NCBI GenBank assembly: GCA_964594735.1
Contig: CAZQMS010000005.1
Span: 19,150 to 83,149, forward strand
Direction: 5' to 3'
DNA length: 64,000 bases
From: an uncultured Candidatus Saccharibacteria bacterium
Lineage (GTDB): Bacteria; Patescibacteriota; Minisyncoccia; Phycocordibacterales; UBA2100
Shown here: piece after piece, positions 16,220-28,097 of the stretch
Numbering within the stretch: position 1 is the stretch's first letter
Layout of the letters: every line of letters starts with the position of its first letter
Notes under the pieces: generated by a model
What the model was told of the DNA's origin: nothing
Databases searched by the model: none
What the model saw: only the letters and a program-made list of their open reading frames with translations
Translations under genes and position numbers: made by a program

Positions 16220-16536
16220 ACACTGTGCACAGCTTTTTACACCATAAAACCCCGTTGCCTGCTGGCAGCGGGGTGTTATGTTTCCTCGTAGAGGAAATCA
16301 TTTGGAGATGCACACTATCGGGTGATGCTTTTGTAGGAAAAGTTGCAGCTGGAACCTGAGGATAGTGGCAGCGGCGCCACCACGTCCTCGGCAAAGCCAC
16401 CATCACCCGATGCTATGCGTCTCCAAAAGAGAAAAGCCCTCACAAAGGGCTTCTACCCTCTAATATAGCATATTAGAAATATTTGTCAATCCCGGCCTCA
16501 TCTCGCCCGCCTTGCGGTCCAGAAGAGCCCACCGAT

Positions 16537-17550
16537 ATGACCGACACTCCCGATACTCCCCAAAAGTCCCCCCGCAGCCTCGACCAGGCACTTCGCCCTG
16601 AGTCGTGGAAGGAATACATTGGCCAAGAGGCCATCAAGGAAAATCTCCGCATCCTCCTCACCGCCGCCAAGAGCCGCAACCATCAGCCCGAGCACGTCCT
16701 CCTCTATGGCCCGCCGGGCCTCGGCAAGACGACGCTCTCACACCTCATGGCCAAAGAGATAGGCGCGAGCCTCAAAAGCACGTCGGGACCCGCTATCGAG
16801 CGCGTGGGCGACCTCGCCTCCATCCTCACCAATCTCTCACCGGGTGACGTCCTCTTTATAGATGAAATTCACCGCCTCAATCGCACGATTGAAGAAGTCC
16901 TCTACCCCGCCATGGAAGCGGGCGTGCTCGATATCGTCATCGGCAAAGGTCCGGCAGCGCGCACGGTGCAGCTCGAGCTGCCTCCATTCACGCTCATCGC
17001 CGCGACGACGCGCATCTCGATGCTCTCCGCGCCGCTTCGCTCGCGCTTCTCAGGCGGCACATTCCGCCTCCAGTACTACACCGATGCGGCGATAGCAGAA
17101 ATCCTCCGCCGCTCGGCAAAAATTCTCGGCATCGAGATAGACGCGGATTCGCTCATGGAAATTGCACGGCGCTCTCGCGCGACGCCGCGCACCGCCAACT
17201 ATCTTTTGAAGCGCGCACGCGACTTCGCGTCGGTAAACGAAGAAACATTACACCTCAAGACCGTGAAGAAAGCGCTCGCGCTGCTCGAGATAGATGAAAT
17301 GGGACTCAACCAAACCGACCGCGACATCCTCACGCTCCTATGCGAGAAGTTCAACGGTGGCCCGGTGGGCCTGAAAACAATTGCAGCCGCGCTTTCCGAA
17401 GAAGAAGCGACGATAGAAGAGGTCAACGAGCCCTACCTCATGCAAACGGGCCTCATCGAGCGGACTCCGCGCGGCCGAACGGTCACGAAGAAGGGCTACG
17501 CACACTTGGGCTTCGACAAATCGGGCTCTTCGCAAGCAAAGCTCATGTAG
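16537..17550 (+). CDS. ruvB: Holliday junction DNA helicase RuvB
   Basis: LLYGPPGLGKTTL Walker A, FIDEIHRL, and a RuvB C-terminal winged-helix domain; the start is trimmed to the ATG at 16537. Confidence 0.9.
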   Translation: MTDTPDTPQKSPRSLDQALRPESWKEYIGQEAIKENLRILLTAAKSRNHQPEHVLLYGPPGLGKTTLSHLMAKEIGASLKSTSGPAIERVGDLASILTNLSPGDVLFIDEIHRLNRTIEEVLYPAMEAGVLDIVIGKGPAARTVQLELPPFTLIAATTRISMLSAPLRSRFSGGTFRLQYYTDAAIAEILRRSAKILGIEIDADSLMEIARRSRATPRTANYLLKRARDFASVNEETLHLKTVKKALALLEIDEMGLNQTDRDILTLLCEKFNGGPVGLKTIAAALSEEEATIEEVNEPYLMQTGLIERTPRGRTVTKKGYAHLGFDKSGSSQAKLM

Positions 17551-17667
17551 TTGCGGCTTCATTTGCCAAGGAGTAGTGTTGCATCGGACAATAGTGTCCG
17601 AGAGGGTTCAAGGACCCGCGCCCCAAGGGGCTAGGAGCCAAGGCTCCGAAACTCAGAGGAGGTTACA

Positions 17668-18240
17668 GTGGCATCAGACTTCCGCGTCAATTCAATTCAC
17701 GAGGATAGAATCAAGAATCTTGGCCAGCAAATGGACTCGCTGCGCGAAGCTTTCTGGACTGCCGCCCGAGAGAAAAACGACGCCGTGGCCGCAGCTCTGT
17801 TGGAGGGCTTGTTGCAGAAGTGCCAAGAGTTCTCTGACGATCCGCTGGTACGTATCTATTGCAGGGGGGACACTGCGAAGAAACTGTTGCTTGAATTCAT
17901 AGAAAAAAGCGGTTACGACCCGATGGTCGTGCCAATCACCGCCCAAAAACTCTGCGACGCCGTCGTGTCATGCTGGATCGAAGTGGCGGGCACCTACGAT
18001 CATGATTTTCACGGCGCAATCGCATGCGCGGGATTGACCGCAAGTGAGGTTGCATTGCTCATGGCGAAGTCCGTCAGGGCGCACGTCGGCAAATACACAC
18101 ACGCTATACGTGAATGGCGGTTCGTCCGCCACTACAAGGGAACGGTACCCGATGCCGTCATACGCGTACTCGCACATTCCATCGTGCGGAAGAGTGACGG
18201 CGCAGAGGTACTCGCCATGTTAAAGGCACACGCGGCATAG
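17668..18240 (+). CDS. hypothetical protein (cassette A downstream of ruvB)
   Basis: 190 aa with no known motif. GTG start with GAGGAGG 5 nt upstream, which is unlike most genes here. Confidence 0.5.
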   Translation: MASDFRVNSIHEDRIKNLGQQMDSLREAFWTAAREKNDAVAAALLEGLLQKCQEFSDDPLVRIYCRGDTAKKLLLEFIEKSGYDPMVVPITAQKLCDAVVSCWIEVAGTYDHDFHGAIACAGLTASEVALLMAKSVRAHVGKYTHAIREWRFVRHYKGTVPDAVIRVLAHSIVRKSDGAEVLAMLKAHAA

Positions 18241-18256
18241 ACTGGTGCGGATGCAA

Positions 18257-18293
18257 CGGCCGGTGGGAGCAATCCCCCCGGCCGTGACTTTTT
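18257..18293 (+). terminator. rho-independent terminator ending cassette A
   Basis: CGGCCGGTGGGA-GCAA-TCCCCCCGGCCG (12 bp with 1 mismatch) followed by TGACTTTTTAT. Confidence 0.65.
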
Positions 18294-18295
18294 AT

Positions 18296-18372
18296 GCGGC
18301 CGCACCGTGACCGACAAGGGCTATAAGCACTTGGGTTTTGAGAAACCAGGGCAACAAAAGATCATCGATTGA
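18296..18372 (+). repeat. decayed copy of the ruvB 3' end (remnant 1)
   Basis: Translates in frame as RTVTDKGYKHLGFEKPGQQKIID*, compared with the RuvB C-terminus RTVTKKGYAHLGFDKSGSSQAKLM*. Confidence 0.65.
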
Positions 18373-18425
18373 CGCGAGCCTCCTGCTTGCGCAGAATGCC
18401 GCGAGTTCATAGAAGGGAGGCTTCC

Positions 18426-19316
18426 ATGGCCGCAACATACGCGCGGGACATGCGACTGATTCAGGCGGCCGTCGAAGCAATCGACAAGGCACAGCTCACG
18501 GAATCCATACGGCATGTACTGGGGAAATTCCGTGTCGAATCGATTCAGCTTCAGCTCCGCAAGTTGCCCGTAATTCACGTGAGCAACGAAGTGGTGTACG
18601 GGAGAGAGCACCCGATCTCTGTCGTGTCGGGAGAAGCGAGCATCTACACGCATAGCTGCACGGTCTTCGCGCCGGGGCTCGCACGGCGCCGTTCGCACGG
18701 CTTCGGACTCAACCTGTCAGTGCTCGAAGTGGTGGTGCATGAAGTCACGCACCGCATCTCGGGAGAACGCGTGGCAAAGGGTACGCATATCGACGGTGGC
18801 GCTCAGTACAAAACCACGCGCTACCACAATGGTCTTCGTGAATCGCTGATCGTGGATGGTATGGAGGCTATCGAAAACAACATCATGCTCAACGAGGGGG
18901 TGACGCAGTATTTTGCACTCGAAGTCATGCGTGAGTACCTGCGTCGCGGCTGGTACATGCAGGTCTCAAAGCCGGAAGTCGGTATGTACTTCGAGCAGGT
19001 TGAGCGCGGCGTCCGCGGCGCGTTTTATCCGGCAGCAGTCACCTACGTGGAGGCTCTCGCGAAACGTCTCGCACAGCCACTTGGATCGCGAGAAAAGGCG
19101 TACCACCGCCTTTTGCGCGCATACTTCCGTGCGGAACCAATCCTGCACGACAAGGAGTGGCGTGAGCTGTTGGTAGCGTCGGGAGTCTACGGCATCCTCA
19201 AGAGGGCACGCGGCGCAAGACACCGCGACCTTGCAGGCTTCACCACCCAGATCGCCAGCGGCATGATTGACCGCGGCGTGTGGGAAAGCATCGAGACCGA
19301 AGAAGTGCCGGTTTGA
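18426..19316 (+). CDS. putative HExxH zinc metallopeptidase (cassette B)
   Basis: VVHEVTHRI (HExxH) followed by IMLNEGVTQYFA, which resembles the gluzincin WLNEG third-ligand motif. GGGAGG lies 5 nt upstream of the ATG. Confidence 0.5.
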   Translation: MAATYARDMRLIQAAVEAIDKAQLTESIRHVLGKFRVESIQLQLRKLPVIHVSNEVVYGREHPISVVSGEASIYTHSCTVFAPGLARRRSHGFGLNLSVLEVVVHEVTHRISGERVAKGTHIDGGAQYKTTRYHNGLRESLIVDGMEAIENNIMLNEGVTQYFALEVMREYLRRGWYMQVSKPEVGMYFEQVERGVRGAFYPAAVTYVEALAKRLAQPLGSREKAYHRLLRAYFRAEPILHDKEWRELLVASGVYGILKRARGARHRDLAGFTTQIASGMIDRGVWESIETEEVPV

Positions 19317-19337
19317 AGCGCGTTCTTTCACCGAAAG

Positions 19338-19375
19338 CGGCCGGCGGGAGCAATCCCACCGGCCGTGACTTTTTA
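19338..19375 (+). terminator. rho-independent terminator ending cassette B
   Basis: CGGCCGGCGGGA-GCAA-TCCCACCGGCCG followed by TGACTTTTTAT; a near-identical copy of the element at 18257. Confidence 0.65.
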
Positions 19376-19376
19376 T

Positions 19377-19450
19377 GCGGCCGCACCGTGACCGACAAAG
19401 GCTACGCCCACCTTGGTATAGAGCACCAGCGGAACAATAGTTTATTTTGA
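19377..19450 (+). repeat. decayed copy of the ruvB 3' end (remnant 2)
   Basis: Translates as RTVTDKGYAHLGIEHQRNNSLF*; the 70 nt 19335-19404 are about 94% identical to 18254-18323. Confidence 0.65.
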
Positions 19451-19645
19451 ACTTAAGAATTCCTTTTAAAAGCTTATAAATTCTACTTTGTTATGGGTCT
19501 TAAAAAAACTCTACTTAAGCCATTATATGAGCTTCTTGAGTTTGCTTCTAACGGGAGCTGGGCGCGGGCGGGGCGAGATGGCGGTGGGGATAAGAGGAGG
19601 GCCCGCGGTGAAGAGGCGCGTACAATAGGTGCACACGCACGGTAG

Positions 19646-19677
19646 CGAAAGAGGTCTCCTTTCGGAGACCTCTTTCG
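19646..19677 (+). other. perfect 14-bp inverted repeat (CGAAAGAGGTCTCC-TTTC-GGAGACCTCTTTCG) in a 600-nt non-coding stretch
   Basis: Seen directly; followed by a U-rich stretch TTCTCGG. Possible sRNA terminator or structured RNA. Confidence 0.4.
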
Positions 19678-20059
19678 TTCTCGGCCATTTCGGATTGATG
19701 GTGGGCAAAGTCCGCCTTGATACGATCTCCACGTACTTCCCCCAACACCTCAATGCTCTGACCGACTGTTCCCGCATTAGTCGCAAACTTGCGCATGGAC
19801 TCATCCGGGGAACTTGCTCCCTCGGGCAGACACGTTTCCGTGGGACCCGGGGAACCGACCGACGCACGGTAAGGCGCATCGATAAGAGAAATGTACATCA
19901 CGAAAAAATGCGCAATTTTAATGAAAAGGACAACTTCGGGGGAATACGAGTGGACAAGTATGTGGATATGGCTGTGCACAAACCCTGCTTTACGCTGGGG
20001 ATAGGCGTGATTCACTGAAACAAGTGAGGGGTAGAGCCCCCAATGGAGGAGGTGCTGCG

Positions 20060-20338
20060 ATGCCAGCGAACGCGTCAGAAGATTTCCACAAGCAGCTCGA
20101 GGGGTACGGGCTGACCACCGCGAGCATTCTCTATCGGATGCCCGACCATCGTGCCCTCCTCCAGACGTACATCTGGCAAGAATACGACCTCTTCCCAAAA
20201 TTCCCGGAGCTGAAGAAGTTCCTCGAGTTCTGGCGGGCGAACCTCGACGGGCCGCTCCACTCGGTGCAAGTCGCGCACACCAAGCTCATCAAACCCGTGG
20301 AGCTCAAGCTCGTCGGCAGCGAATTCCGATTGCACTGA
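20060..20338 (+). CDS. Usg-like family protein (PF06233-like, recalled from memory)
   Basis: LEGYGLTTASILYRMPDHRALLQTYIWQEYDLFPKFPELKKFLEFWRANLDGPLHSV matches my memory of Usg proteins. GGAGGAGG lies 7 nt upstream. Confidence 0.5.
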   Translation: MPANASEDFHKQLEGYGLTTASILYRMPDHRALLQTYIWQEYDLFPKFPELKKFLEFWRANLDGPLHSVQVAHTKLIKPVELKLVGSEFRLH

Positions 20339-24997: not shown

Positions 24998-25033
24998 ACG
25001 GCTTGTTGAAAGTTGAATGTTTGATGTTGGTAG

Positions 25034-26131
25034 TTATCTATTCAGTGGCATCACGAGGTACGTGAAGCTGCTATCGGAGACGCCGCGGATAACGAGCGGT
25101 CTACCGGGGCCGGAGAATCCGAGCACGACGGAATCTGATTGTATTGTCGCCAGACAATCTGATATGTACCCGATATGGAAGTTGATATCGAGATCGTCCC
25201 CCGCGAGCGCCGCATCAATACTGTCGGACATCTCACCCACATCTGCACTACGTGCCGTGGCAGTGAAAATCTTCTTCTTTGGGTAGATGTGTAGGCCGAC
25301 GTGCATCTCCTGACCAGAGAAGACGCGTGCCTTGCGGAGCATTTCGGCAAGATCATTCTTAAGTACCGTCGCTTCCGAGGTGAACTTCTTGGGGATAATT
25401 TCTTTGTAGTTAGGAAATGTCGCATCGACGACACGAGATACGAACCTTGTTCCACTCCCAATGACCACCAATTGCGCATCATCCGTCGAAAGCGCGACAG
25501 TGTCGTCACTGAGCCTCTCGAGCACATGGACGAGCTCTAGGGCGTGTTTAAGCGGAATGAGAAGCTCTCCCGATGTGCGCGCACCTGTCTCCGAAACCAT
25601 TTTCTCCGCAAGTCGGAATGAATCAGTGGCAACGCACACCATCGAACCATCCTGCATTGAGATGTAGATACTTCCGAGATCGGGTCGAATCATCGACGGC
25701 GAAGCTGCGTATGCGACCGATTGAATACCGTGGATAAGTCTCTCACGCGCGAGTGTAATCTCTTTTTTCCCACTCTCGCTCGAGAGCACTGGAAATTCTT
25801 CATGGGGGACAGCTTTGATAAGGGTCTTTGTCCCTCTTGATTCGATGAGGAGGTTACCATCTTCAGTCGAAAGCGTCACTTTGTCGCCTCCAATAGCGCG
25901 GATTGTTTGGGAGAGGATTGCTGCGGATACTGCTACCGTACCTTTTTCTTCAACATCACCTGCGACAGATATTTCTATCCCCGCCTCAAGATTGGTCGCT
26001 TTTAAATTTATATCCTTTGCTCCCTCGATGAGTACACACGAAAGAATAGGAAGTGACTCTTTTTTTCCTGTAATGCGTTCTGCCATGAGAATCGCATTAA
26101 GAATCTTTTCTTTTGTTGTTGTGAGTTTCAT
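25034..26131 (-). CDS. dnaN: DNA polymerase III beta sliding clamp
   Basis: 365 aa in three-domain clamp layout, located downstream of dnaA. Confidence 0.85.
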   Translation of the reverse strand: MKLTTTKEKILNAILMAERITGKKESLPILSCVLIEGAKDINLKATNLEAGIEISVAGDVEEKGTVAVSAAILSQTIRAIGGDKVTLSTEDGNLLIESRGTKTLIKAVPHEEFPVLSSESGKKEITLARERLIHGIQSVAYAASPSMIRPDLGSIYISMQDGSMVCVATDSFRLAEKMVSETGARTSGELLIPLKHALELVHVLERLSDDTVALSTDDAQLVVIGSGTRFVSRVVDATFPNYKEIIPKKFTSEATVLKNDLAEMLRKARVFSGQEMHVGLHIYPKKKIFTATARSADVGEMSDSIDAALAGDDLDINFHIGYISDCLATIQSDSVVLGFSGPGRPLVIRGVSDSSFTYLVMPLNR

Positions 26132-26442
26132 ATTCTTTTCATTCTTTAAATAACTATTACTACTATTAGTACTGTGTACAGCGGGGATAACCGTAAAAAA
26201 TGGCGGAGTGGAGAGATGAAATAGTGCAACGGAGGGTGTTGAAAACTTCTGCGCGAACTAGGAACAAGGTGTGTGTAAGTGGTGTTGGTGAAGAAACGCT
26301 GAAGTTGTACGCATGTTGTCCCACCCACTGTTCGAGTAGTTGTACAGCGTTCTCCACAGGATATACCACCATGTTGTGCACAACAGTAGAGCCGCCGATT
26401 GCGTGGGAAGCGGCGGGTGTGTGAGGAGAAAATCGCATAGGC
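26132..26442. other. candidate oriC (dnaA-dnaN spacer with an AT-rich DNA-unwinding element and DnaA-box-like sites)
   Basis: A 44-nt AT-rich stretch (26132-26175) in a 60% GC genome; TTCTCCACA (1 mismatch to TTATCCACA) and TGTGCACAA / TGTGTACAG repeats. Confidence 0.45.
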
Positions 26443-27795
26443 CTACGCGTGGATGAGGGTGCGGATGTGGTCGAGTTCTTGCTCAAGTGAGTTGTTGCTC
26501 TTTATCTCCTCTTTGATTTTTTCGCACGAGTGGATGACTGTGGTGTGGTCGCGGCCGCCGAGCTTCTCCCCTATTGAAGGGTATGAGACGCTAAATTCTT
26601 CACGAAGGACGTACATGATGATCTGTCTCGGCTTGACCACCTCCTTTTTGCGCGTCTTTTCGTAGATGCTTTTCTCGGGGACTTCGTAATACTGCGCGAT
26701 GCGGCGCACCACCTCATCTATAGAGACGCCACGATTCGGCTTCACATTGTGTTTGATGAGGGCGCGTACGTCGGCGTGCGATATCGCTTTGCCCTTGAGC
26801 TGCGATTTGCACACAATCATATTGAGAACACCTTCAAGTTCGCGGATGTTGCCGCGCACGTTCTCAGCGATGTACTGGATGATGTCTTCCGGTATGGAAA
26901 AACCGTGCTGCTCTATTTTTGCCTTGATGATGGCGATGCGGCTCTCTACATCGGGCTCCGGTATCTCCGCGATGACACCGGCGGCGAAGCGGCCTTTGAG
27001 GCGCTCCTCAAAGCCCGGGAGGAGCGATGGGTGTTTATCTGACGAGAAGACAATTTGTTTGTTGTTGTCGTGAAGTGCGTTGAAGAGGTGGAAGAGTTCT
27101 TCCTGGGTCTTCTCTGTGTTTGCGATGAACTGGATGTCGTCCATGATGAGGACATCGTACTGACGGTACTGGTCTTTGAAGTTGTTGGCGCGTCCCGCAC
27201 GCACGGCGTTGATGTAATCAATCGCGAAGCGCTCCGATGTGACGTAGAGCACTTTTTTGTTCGCGTGCTGTTTCTTGAAATGATTGCCAACCGCTTGGAT
27301 GAGGTGGGTCTTGCCGTGACCTGTCGAGCCGTAGATGAAAAGCGGATTGTACGTGAGGCCCGGGCGATCTATCACCGCCTTTGCTGCCGCGTGGGCAAGC
27401 TGATTGAAGGGGCCGACGACAAATGTCTCAAATGTGTAGCGTGGGTTGAGGTTGTCGCGCTTGTCTATATAGAGAGACTGGAGGTCGAACGACGCGTTCT
27501 CCTGGGGCTTTTCAGCGCGCGGCGCCCTGCGCTCGGCACTCGGGGCACTGCGATGAACGACGTACTCGACGGTGCGAATAGTGTTGTCGAGGCTACGGAG
27601 TGCCTTGAGGATGAGCTTGTGGTGTTTCTCGAGCAGCCACTCTTTCACAATCTTCGACGGCACGGCCACCTGCACTGTCCCCGACTCGCGGTTTGCGATG
27701 TCAGTATTGCGAAACCAAGTGCGGAAGGAGGCTTGTGATGTTCCTAATTCTATTTGGACCAATGCGTTCTGCCATAGTTCTCGATTGGTCATCAT
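26443..27795 (-). CDS. dnaA: chromosomal replication initiator DnaA
   Basis: GSTGHGKTHL Walker A, AAA+ sensor motifs and a C-terminal DNA-binding domain. The track start is TTG at 27804; the ATG at 27795 is likelier. Confidence 0.9.
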   Translation of the reverse strand: MMTNRELWQNALVQIELGTSQASFRTWFRNTDIANRESGTVQVAVPSKIVKEWLLEKHHKLILKALRSLDNTIRTVEYVVHRSAPSAERRAPRAEKPQENASFDLQSLYIDKRDNLNPRYTFETFVVGPFNQLAHAAAKAVIDRPGLTYNPLFIYGSTGHGKTHLIQAVGNHFKKQHANKKVLYVTSERFAIDYINAVRAGRANNFKDQYRQYDVLIMDDIQFIANTEKTQEELFHLFNALHDNNKQIVFSSDKHPSLLPGFEERLKGRFAAGVIAEIPEPDVESRIAIIKAKIEQHGFSIPEDIIQYIAENVRGNIRELEGVLNMIVCKSQLKGKAISHADVRALIKHNVKPNRGVSIDEVVRRIAQYYEVPEKSIYEKTRKKEVVKPRQIIMYVLREEFSVSYPSIGEKLGGRDHTTVIHSCEKIKEEIKSNNSLEQELDHIRTLIHA

Positions 27796-27962
27796 AGATA
27801 TCAACAGCGAATGAAGCTCACGTATTATACGCGTGCAGCTTTCGCTGGGAAGCGCCGCGGGAGTGTTACGACATGTTCACAACCTGTGTACAACCTGTTG
27901 ATTACTTTTTCGCCCACCATCGCTGTTGCCATGTGCCAGATTTTGCCGTATAGTCCGAAGTC

Positions 27963-28097
27963 ATGAGACGAACCTATCAGCCGAAGAAGCGCAAGCGAGC
28001 GAAAACACATGGTTTCCGCTCCCGCACGACGACTACCAAGGGGCAAAAGGTGCTCCGCAGGCGTCGTCAGAAGGGACGCAAGCGCCTCTCCGCATAG
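27963..28097 (+). CDS. rpmH: 50S ribosomal protein L34
   Basis: [44 protein letters not shown] (44 aa, translated by hand; below the ORF-track size cutoff). TATAGT lies 8 nt upstream. Confidence 0.9.

What the first reader, a model, noticed from the sequence alone, without database searches (positions are those of the whole stretch)
18426..19316. Cassette B encodes an HExxH protein with a gluzincin-like NEG third-ligand motif
VVHEVTHRI is a canonical HExxH. About 50 residues downstream, IMLNEGVTQYFA resembles the WLNEG(F/V)A motif that supplies the third zinc ligand in M1-type gluzincins. The protein has no signal peptide or TM segment. It sits in a putatively acquired cassette next to a 190-aa protein of unknown function, so it may be a toxin, an ImmA-like regulator protease, or an anti-defence function.
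Basis: partly seen in the sequence, partly recalled or inferred. Interest (0 to 1): 0.55.

Follow-up and report, generated by a model that had tools for sequence, protein, structure and literature searches.

The report
Unclassified zinc-protease-like gene beside ruvB
The gene encodes a 296-residue cytoplasmic protein that looks like a zinc protease and belongs to a very rare, unnamed family seen here only in tiny "candidate phyla radiation" bacteria; its zinc-site residues are the only invariant ones in the family, but its fold matches no solved structure and its biological role is unknown.

Summary
Window 18426-19316 (+) is a 296-aa ORF with HEVTH at residues 105-109 and LNEG at 155-158, and it has no signal peptide or TM segment. 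Exhaustive searches found only about 30 relatives, none matching Pfam, NCBIfam, PADLOC, PHROGs or a PDB sequence. Across 28 members (14-50% identity) the only invariant residues are H105, E106, H109, G136, E157 and T160. This supports a Glu-zincin site: two His and one Glu bind zinc, and E106 acts as the base. The "M1-type" reading holds only at motif level. The His-to-Glu spacing is 47 residues (23-69 in the family) against 18 in M1, there is no GxMEN motif, and the M1 model scores below threshold. High-confidence AlphaFold models gave no significant Foldseek match; the three weak best hits were all zincins. The gene is not a recent arrival. It lies downstream of ruvB in three related genomes, has host-like codon usage and is under purifying selection (dN/dS 0.16), though it evolves fast. 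ORF A is an ORFan inserted between ruvB and this gene, not a partner. Nothing supports the ImmA, toxin or anti-defence readings. In two lineages the gene is flanked by copies of the 3' end of the upstream essential gene, which hints at cassette-like insertion.

The parts
18426..19316 (+). ORF B: 296-aa predicted cytoplasmic Glu-zincin-like protein, the subject of the finding
   Evidence: ORF list and sequence. Orthologues of the same length at 50% identity. dN/dS of 0.16 between two orthologues. AlphaFold model with pLDDT 90.4.
18738..18752 (+). Codons for H105-E106-V-T-H109: predicted zinc ligands H105 and H109 and catalytic base E106
   Evidence: Invariant in 28 of 28 family members. Lies inside helix 95-111 of the model. 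The Peptidase_M1 profile matches this stretch.
18765..18878 (+). Codons for residues 114-151: a four-strand beta-meander inserted between the HExxH helix and the Glu helix. It contains the invariant G136.
   Evidence: DSSP strands 114-123, 126-135, 138-143 and 146-151. The length varies, giving a His-to-Glu spacing of 23-69 residues across the family. It is absent from the model of P0027.
18891..18905 (+). Codons for N156-E157-G158-V159-T160: E157 is the predicted third zinc ligand, at the N-terminus of helix 153-174
   Evidence: E157 and T160 are invariant, and G158, V159 and N156 are conserved in 82-93% of members. The motif matches SEGFTEYFAR of a solved M61 aminopeptidase, though not significantly.
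18387..18420 (+). Conserved upstream element TTGCGC-N17-TAGAAG (promoter-like) followed by the GGGAGG ribosome-binding site
   Evidence: The block TTGCGCAGAATGCCGCGAG...ATA is conserved upstream of the gene in the window, L002 and L003. The consensus scanner did not call it. Promoter function is inferred.
19337..19375 (+). Intrinsic-terminator-like hairpin with a T-run that closes the ORF B unit
   Evidence: Folds at -25.6 kcal/mol, z -4.0. An orthologous hairpin follows the gene in L002 and L003.
18296..18372 (+). Orphan copy of the ruvB 3' end ('tail 2', ...GRTVTDKGYKHLGFEKPGQQKIID*) directly upstream of ORF B
   Evidence: Aligns with the functional ruvB 3' end that precedes the orthologue in L003. 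Belongs to repeat families D1 and D2.
19377..19450 (+). Second orphan copy of the ruvB 3' end ('tail 3', ...GRTVTDKGYAHLGIEHQRNNSLF*) directly downstream of the ORF B terminator
   Evidence: A 104-nt direct repeat with 18257-18360, z about 50 against shuffles. The 61-nt core is found only twice in the window, with 0 expected.
18256..18294 (+). Terminator-like hairpin that closes the ORF A unit. The 61-nt stretch made of this hairpin plus the start of the following ruvB tail is 59/61 identical to the equivalent stretch after ORF B.
   Evidence: Folds at -24.9 kcal/mol. Repeat D1.
17668..18240 (+). ORF A: a 190-aa ORFan inserted between ruvB and ORF B. It is not a conserved partner.
   Evidence: Only a self-hit among 5.8 billion clusters. 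Absent from L002-L005. No family hit.
16483..17550 (+). ruvB. Its last ~80 nt (17471-17550) form the sequence copied twice downstream.
   Evidence: RuvB translation is 85-91% identical to the RuvB of L003-L005. Repeat D2.

Best explanation
ORF B encodes a soluble, stand-alone, zinc-dependent hydrolase of the Glu-zincin type, most probably a peptidase. It founds a previously unclassified family seen here only in Parcubacteria-type CPR genomes or unassigned metagenome contigs. Proposed mechanism: H105 and H109 on helix 95-111 and E157 at the start of helix 153-174 bind one zinc ion; E106 activates the zinc-bound water; the near-invariant Y171 and/or Y201 stabilise the transition state. A variable beta insert (residues 114-151, with invariant G136) between the two ligand helices probably shapes the substrate cleft. 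The gene is a self-contained unit (conserved promoter-like element, Shine-Dalgarno site, ORF, terminator) that needs no adjacent partner. It is a resident but fast-evolving accessory gene in a recombination-prone spot downstream of ruvB. Shown: the motifs, their invariance, family rarity, purifying selection, the predicted secondary-structure topology, and the synteny and repeats. Inferred: zinc binding, peptidase activity, the roles of the Tyr residues and the insert, and promoter function. The substrate is unknown.
For: Family size and classification. The family is tiny: 18 representatives among 1.84 billion proteins and about 30 sequences in all, none with a Pfam domain.

Conservation. The only invariant residues in 28 members are H105, E106, H109, G136, E157 and T160. 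All columns conserved in at least 70% of members cluster on the two motif helices, plus Y171 and Y201.

Structure. AlphaFold models are confident: pLDDT 90.4 and pTM 0.89 for the query, and 80.6 for the minimal member P0027. Both show the zincin order: a three-strand sheet, then the HExxH helix, then the Glu helix.

Weak hits. Three independent best hits are all MA-clan zincins: Pfam Peptidase_M1 at E 0.014; the only PDB sequence hit to the active-site profile, an M61 aminopeptidase matching both motifs, at E 0.94; and the top Foldseek hit, mini-zincin 2ejq, at probability 0.84 (PMC3890501).

Localisation and selection. There is no TM segment or signal peptide. dN/dS is 0.16 and GC3 is host-like.

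No partner. The neighbours differ in every lineage.
Against: No statistically significant match to any peptidase family or fold was found. Pfam is below threshold. NCBIfam gave nothing. PDB sequence searches gave nothing below E 0.6. Foldseek against the PDB gave E of at least 0.5 for both models. The M1 match obtained after in-silico deletion does not generalise. Model coordinates could not be inspected, so the convergence of H105, H109 and E157 on one site is not verified. Some zincin-like HExxH proteins are not peptidases.
Confidence: 0.6

Rival explanations
1. The gene is cargo of a small mobile cassette, acting as an effector, toxin or anti-defence protease. The HExxH gene would travel as a one-gene unit that inserts into the 3' end of essential genes while supplying a replacement end, and its protease would act on host, competitor or phage proteins.
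For: In the window the gene is bounded by two copies of the ruvB 3' end (104-nt repeat, z about 50). In L006/L007 a distant homologue is bounded by a 26-nt copy (24/26) of the frr 3' end including the stop codon, z 8.6. ORF A occupies a similar unit whose 61-nt 3' end is 59/61 identical. The protein evolves much faster than its neighbours: 34-50% identity against 85-91% for RuvB. One homologue, P0024, lies near a Y1 transposase and a large serine recombinase.
Against: No flanking repeats were found in the other eight distinct contexts tested (L007, L009 and L013 duplicate L006, L008 and L012). The gene is syntenic after ruvB in three related genomes. No recombinase motif was found in the window. 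There are no relatives in viral contigs, phages or plasmids and no PADLOC or PHROGs hit. There is no secretion signal and no conserved immunity-like neighbour.
Confidence: 0.15
2. The protein is a metal-dependent hydrolase acting on a non-peptide substrate, or a non-catalytic metal-binding protein, that uses a zincin-like HExxH...E site.
For: No significant similarity to any characterised peptidase. From general knowledge, some zincin-like HExxH proteins (for example the DUF45/YgjP type) are reported as nucleotide hydrolases.
Against: The invariant Glu inside the HExxH (the catalytic base) and the M1/M61-like 'xEG(V/F)TE..AR' helix are hallmarks of peptidases of clan MA. Family pI ranges from 4.7 to 9.6, which argues against a family-wide nucleic-acid-binding role.
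Confidence: 0.12
3. The protein is an ImmA/IrrE-type regulatory protease that cleaves a cognate repressor.
Against: No Peptidase_M78/COG2856 hit for any of the first 19 members. No adjacent HTH or Xre-type gene in the window or in L002-L009 and L012-L018. No prophage context.
Confidence: 0.04
4. The protein is a protease functionally tied to ribosome recycling or rescue, for example degrading products of stalled translation.
For: Three distant homologues directly follow frr (L006), smpB (L008, 1-nt gap) or a GTPase ending in an EFG_C domain (L018).
Against: This is a post-hoc pattern in 3 of about 11 contexts, in genomes where roughly one gene in seven is translation-related (the rough binomial estimate is my own). 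In L018 a terminator and a separate promoter-like sequence lie between the two genes. The window lineage places the gene after ruvB instead.
Confidence: 0.05

Closest known systems
Peptidase families M1 (aminopeptidase N / LTA4H, Pfam PF01433) and M61 (glycyl aminopeptidase), clan MA(E)
   Same: An HExxH helix is followed by a helix that carries the third-ligand Glu in an 'xEG(V/F)(T/A)' context. The query's HExxH region is the only Pfam hit. With the insert removed, both motifs align to M1 profile positions 65-112 at 29.3 bits. The family's Glu helix 'FNEGVTEkLAREV' matches 'FSEGFTEYFARRL' of the M61 structure 7xyo.
   Different: The His-to-Glu spacing is 47 residues (23-69 in the family), whereas M1 has 18 (spacing from general knowledge). 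There is no GxMEN motif and none of the N-terminal beta or C-terminal helical domains of M1. The protein has 296 residues against about 870 in E. coli PepN. All scores are below threshold on the native sequence. The deletion effect is seen in only 1 of 10 other members, and hhalign against PepN gives 0.7% probability.
Mini-zincins / minimal zincin scaffolds (DUF1025: Acel_2062 3E11, TTHA0227 2EJQ; PMC3890501)
   Same: Small soluble proteins of unknown substrate with a three-stranded sheet before the HExxH helix. 2ejq_A is the top Foldseek hit for the query model (probability 0.84, TM 0.49 on the target).
   Different: The hit is not significant (E 0.52). Mini-zincins use the Asp-zincin motif HExxHxxGxxD and have about 110 residues. 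Here the third ligand is a distant Glu and the protein has a ~110-residue C-terminal helical bundle.
ImmA/IrrE (M78, COG2856) regulatory metalloproteases
   Same: Cytoplasmic, about 150-300 residues, with HExxH plus a downstream Glu.
   Different: No sequence-family hit, no paired HTH repressor gene and no mobile-element or prophage setting.
Integron gene cassettes, and integrative elements that target and restore the 3' end of a gene (comparison for the context only, from general knowledge)
   Same: One-gene units lie in tandem, each ending in a conserved hairpin-containing sequence, downstream of a fixed site. The displaced copies of the target gene's 3' end look like attL/attR products.
   Different: No integrase was found in the window. 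The hairpins look like ordinary intrinsic terminators. The orthologous gene in L003 and L005 lacks the downstream repeat. There are only two units.

Membership tests
Glu-zincin (gluzincin) metallopeptidases, clan MA(E) | HExxH motif with both His and the Glu conserved | tested here: met
   H105, E106 and H109 are invariant in 28 of 28 members.
Glu-zincin (gluzincin) metallopeptidases, clan MA(E) | Third zinc ligand is a Glu on the helix that follows the HExxH helix | tested here: met
   E157 is the only invariant His, Asp or Glu residue downstream of the HExxH. It lies at the N-terminus of helix 153-174, after helix 95-111. The same holds in the P0027 model: E153 in helix 149-170. Spatial convergence of the three residues was not checked because no coordinates were available.
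Glu-zincin (gluzincin) metallopeptidases, clan MA(E) | Zincin fold recognisable by structure comparison | tested here: inconclusive
Glu-zincin (gluzincin) metallopeptidases, clan MA(E) | Bound zinc and peptidase activity | not testable with these tools
   This needs biochemistry.
Peptidase M1 (PF01433) | Score at or above the Pfam gathering threshold | tested here: not met
   15.4 bits against a cut-off of 27.7, with only 21 residues aligned. Only 1 of 19 members shows even this match.
Peptidase M1 (PF01433) | HExxH-x18-E spacing (general knowledge) | tested here: not met
   The spacing is 47 residues in the query and 23-69 in the family.
Peptidase M1 (PF01433) | GxMEN exopeptidase motif upstream of the HExxH (general knowledge) | tested here: not met
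   Only a Gly (G69, 36 residues upstream) is conserved, and only within the 19-sequence alignment. No M-E-N follows it.
ImmA/IrrE (M78/COG2856) | Family model hit and an adjacent HTH repressor gene | tested here: not met
   No M78 hit. No neighbouring HTH gene in the window or in related loci.
Two-gene toxin-immunity or toxin-antitoxin module with ORF A | Conserved co-occurrence of the two genes | tested here: not met
   ORF A has no homologue anywhere. Orthologues of ORF B occur without it.
Known anti-phage defence or phage protein families | Match to PADLOC or PHROGs models, or presence in phage or plasmid records | tested here: not met
   No hits.

The most novel reading that the evidence does not exclude
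The HExxH gene and ORF A would be cargo of a so far undescribed kind of miniature, integrase-less gene cassette in CPR bacteria. Each unit would consist of a replacement 3' end for the target gene, a promoter-like element, one ORF and a hairpin terminator. It would insert into the 3' end of essential genes (ruvB here, frr in L006) and build integron-like tandem arrays while keeping the target gene intact. The fast-evolving zincin would then be a mobile accessory protease, an effector or an anti-defence factor.
Probability: 0.15. Interest if true: 0.7.

Novelty: new variant of a known kind. Interest (0 to 1): 0.33.

Why it matters
If confirmed, this would be a new metallopeptidase family, a candidate new MEROPS family. 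It has an unusual variable beta insert between its zinc ligands and an overall fold that has no detectable counterpart among solved structures. It was found here only in Parcubacteria-type CPR genomes or unassigned metagenome contigs; these organisms have small genomes in which most accessory genes are unexplained. On its own this is a modest addition, because uncharacterised HExxH proteins are common and this family is extremely rare. The setting is more interesting. The region downstream of ruvB is a hot spot where one-gene units are flanked by copies of the essential gene's 3' end, and a distant homologue shows the same signature at frr. That pattern could reveal how these genomes acquire single genes.

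Tried and rejected
Family libraries with no usable hit:
- Pfam, NCBIfam, PADLOC and PHROGs scans of ORF B, ORF A and family members. The only match was Peptidase_M1, below threshold.
- PDB sequence searches with the single protein, the full profile and the active-site-only profile. Nothing reached E below 0.6.

Structure searches:
- Foldseek of the query model against the PDB and BFVD, and of the insert-less member P0027 against the PDB, found nothing significant.

M1 homology:
- In-silico removal of the beta insert restored M1 spacing and raised the query to 29.3 bits.
- I rejected this as evidence of family-level homology, because only 1 of 10 other members responds and hhalign against E. 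coli PepN aligns only the HExxH.

Partner and mobile-element ideas:
- ORF A as a partner: rejected, because it is an ORFan.
- ORF B as a recently acquired foreign gene: rejected on synteny and composition.
- A recombinase in the window: simple motif scans found none.
- Viral, phage and plasmid relatives: none.

Other leads:
- The 'ArfC' neighbour in L017 as a ribosome-rescue link: not verifiable in the Pfam copy at hand and unsupported by a literature search.
- The gene downstream of the L018 homologue as a tandem paralogue: rejected.
- A family-wide nucleic-acid-binding character: rejected, because pI ranges from 4.7 to 9.6.

Full report
OBSERVATION. Window 18426-19316 (+) is an intact 296-codon ORF. 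It has an ATG start six bases after GGGAGG and a TGA stop. HEVTH occupies residues 105-109 and LNEG residues 155-158, with 47 residues between H109 and E157. The protein has no hydrophobic segment (highest 19-residue Kyte-Doolittle mean 0.92) and no signal-like N-terminus. HExxH alone means little, because ten such strings occur in long ORFs in the six frames of this window. The question is whether the motifs are conserved.

FAMILY. The word-indexed search of 5.8 billion protein clusters found only the protein itself and two 50%-identical, same-length relatives. An exhaustive phmmer scan of 1.84 billion representatives found 18 proteins with E up to 1e-3, all 281-346 residues long. A profile search added nine more. 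None carries a Pfam domain, and the named members are annotated 'hypothetical protein' in Candidatus Kaiserbacteria and Paceibacterota MAGs. In the 28-sequence alignment (14-50% identity to the query, mean column identity 24%) the invariant columns, apart from the initiator Met, are H105, E106, H109, G136, E157 and T160. Every column conserved in at least 70% of members lies on or next to the two motif helices (L97, L100, N156, G158, V159, E161, A164, E166, Y171, L172) or is D20, G92, Y201 or V208. Conservation is therefore concentrated on the predicted metal site, as expected for an enzyme. E157 is the only invariant candidate for a third ligand. There is no HExxHxxGxxH/D extension, so the site is of the Glu-zincin type and not the Met- or Asp-zincin type.

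COMPARISON WITH KNOWN FAMILIES. The only Pfam match of the native protein is Peptidase_M1: 15.4 bits (cut-off 27.7), covering 21 residues around the HExxH. No other member matches any peptidase model, and NCBIfam gives nothing. The best variants then reach 29.3 and 28.5 bits (E about 1e-6) over M1 profile positions 65-112, which span both motifs. The same operation on ten other members gave an M1 hit in only one (18.5 bits). hhalign of the family profile against the E. coli PepN catalytic domain aligned only the HExxH (probability 0.7%). A profile restricted to the active-site region hit one PDB sequence only, an M61 aminopeptidase (7xyo). There HEMFH and FSEGFTEYFARRL align to the family's two motifs, but at E 0.94. 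The three weak best hits from three methods are thus all clan-MA zincins. That agrees with a Glu-zincin site whose Glu helix resembles M1/M61. Membership of M1 itself fails on threshold, spacing and the absent GxMEN motif.

GENOMIC SETTING. The window carries a PilB-like ATPase, ruvB (16483-17550), ORF A, ORF B, a Usg-like gene, yebC, a VIT1-family gene, ruvC and a class A PBP. Related loci come from Kaiserbacteria and Paceibacterota. Orthologues of ORF B lie directly downstream of ruvB in L003 and L005, and one gene further away in L004. ORF B is therefore resident at this position in the clade. Its GC (0.588) and GC3 (0.70) match those of neighbouring housekeeping genes. ORF A has no homologue anywhere and is absent from those loci, so it is the newcomer and not a functional partner.

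REPEAT STRUCTURE. The repeats are real. The last ~80 nt of ruvB recur as orphan fragments at 18296-18372 and 19377-19450. Each follows a strong terminator-like hairpin (-25 kcal/mol). The two 61-nt 'hairpin + junction + tail start' segments are 59/61 identical and unique in the window. The first orphan fragment aligns with the functional ruvB end that precedes the orthologue in L003. It follows that ORF A, together with a new ruvB end, was inserted at the codons for ...RGR|TVT....

A distant homologue, P0021 in L006/L007, follows frr. It is flanked by a 26-nt duplicate (24/26) of the frr 3' end including the stop codon, with z 8.6. The eight other distinct contexts tested show no such repeats: L002, L003, L004, L005, L008 (after smpB), L010 (near a Y1 transposase and a serine recombinase), L012 (between a putative D-Ala-D-Ala carboxypeptidase (named by eye, not tested) and mraY) and L014, as well as L016-L018. 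Neighbours differ from lineage to lineage, so no conserved operon partner exists. No recombinase motif was found in the window. No relative occurs in viral contigs, phages or plasmids.

EVOLUTION. In the same genome pairs RuvB is 85-91% identical while the HExxH protein is 34-50% identical. Between the two closest orthologues (L002 and L003) dN/dS is 0.16. The gene is therefore functional and under purifying selection, but it evolves much faster than the core genes, as many accessory genes do.

INTERPRETATION. The best-supported reading (confidence about 0.6) is a soluble, stand-alone Glu-zincin hydrolase, most likely a peptidase. H105, H109 and E157 would be the zinc ligands and E106 the general base. 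Y171 or Y201 would be candidate transition-state stabilisers. The variable beta insert, with its invariant G136, would shape the substrate cleft. The substrate and the biological role remain unknown.

The ImmA/IrrE reading fails because there is no family hit and no repressor partner. A toxin-immunity pair with ORF A fails because the two genes do not co-occur. Defence or anti-defence roles have no positive evidence. The idea that the gene is cargo of a small cassette that targets the 3' ends of essential genes is not excluded. The flanking duplications at ruvB and frr and the near-identical 3' ends of the ORF A and ORF B units favour it. The lack of repeats elsewhere, the stable synteny and the absence of a recombinase weaken it. 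A link to ribosome recycling or rescue (neighbours frr, smpB and an EFG_C-type GTPase) is a post-hoc pattern of low weight. The 'ArfC' label in L017 could not be verified or tied to ribosome rescue.

VERDICT. This is a new, very rare sequence family of a known kind (zincin-type metallohydrolases) with an unusual ligand spacing and insert and no detectable structural counterpart by the one method that could be run. Interest is modest for the protein itself, and somewhat higher for the cassette-like architecture around it.

Noticed in passing
window 17471-19450: The 3' end of ruvB is present three times: one functional copy and two orphan copies (18296-18372 and 19377-19450). Each orphan follows a near-identical terminator hairpin. 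This bounds two one-gene units (ORF A, 825-nt period; ORF B, 1081-nt period), like a miniature cassette array with junctions at GCGGCCG(C/A)AC.
   Followed up: partly
L006 5959-5984 and 6876-6901 (same in L007): A distant homologue of the HExxH gene is flanked by a 26-nt direct repeat (24/26). The repeat is the 3' end of the upstream frr gene including its stop codon. This is a second, independent case of an essential-gene tail duplicated around this gene family.
   Followed up: partly
window 19451-20044: About 600 bp between the second orphan ruvB tail and the Usg-like gene contain no recognisable gene (no Pfam hits for the ORFs, no Rfam hit). The stretch holds an AT-rich segment (about 19440-19520) and a perfect 14-bp inverted repeat at 19646-19677. 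The YGGT-like gene that follows the HExxH gene in L002-L005 is missing from the whole window, so this region has been rearranged.
   Followed up: partly
window 20045-20338; L005 8679-8969: A Usg-like protein (PF06233, E 2e-40) is encoded next to yebC. From my own recollection, not tested here, this family is mostly known from proteobacteria, yet it is conserved in these CPR genomes.
   Followed up: no
window 16298-16327 and 16401-16430: A 30-nt inverted repeat (83% complementary, 73 nt between the arms) lies in the intergenic region just upstream of ruvB.
   Followed up: no
window 25000-28000: GC content drops to 0.49-0.53 against about 0.57-0.60 elsewhere, and the GC skew shifts. This may be a foreign or otherwise atypical segment.
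   Followed up: no
L010 14-1690, 4308-4733 and 5169-6266: The family member P0024 (365 aa, the longest His-to-Glu spacing) lies in a contig with a large serine recombinase and a Y1 (IS200/IS605-type) transposase. This is the only clearly mobile-element context found for the family.
   Followed up: no
L005 6986-7687 and 7804-8562: Two tandem paralogous genes (233 and 252 aa, 25% identical) of unknown function lie between the HExxH gene and the Usg-like gene. This is another sign that the region downstream of ruvB is variable.
   Followed up: no
L001 (= window 18288-19388): An independent short-read assembly (Logan, SRR15237806) breaks its contig exactly inside the 40-nt stretch shared by the two repeat copies. 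This confirms that the repeat is present in the raw data and is not an artefact of this assembly.
   Followed up: yes
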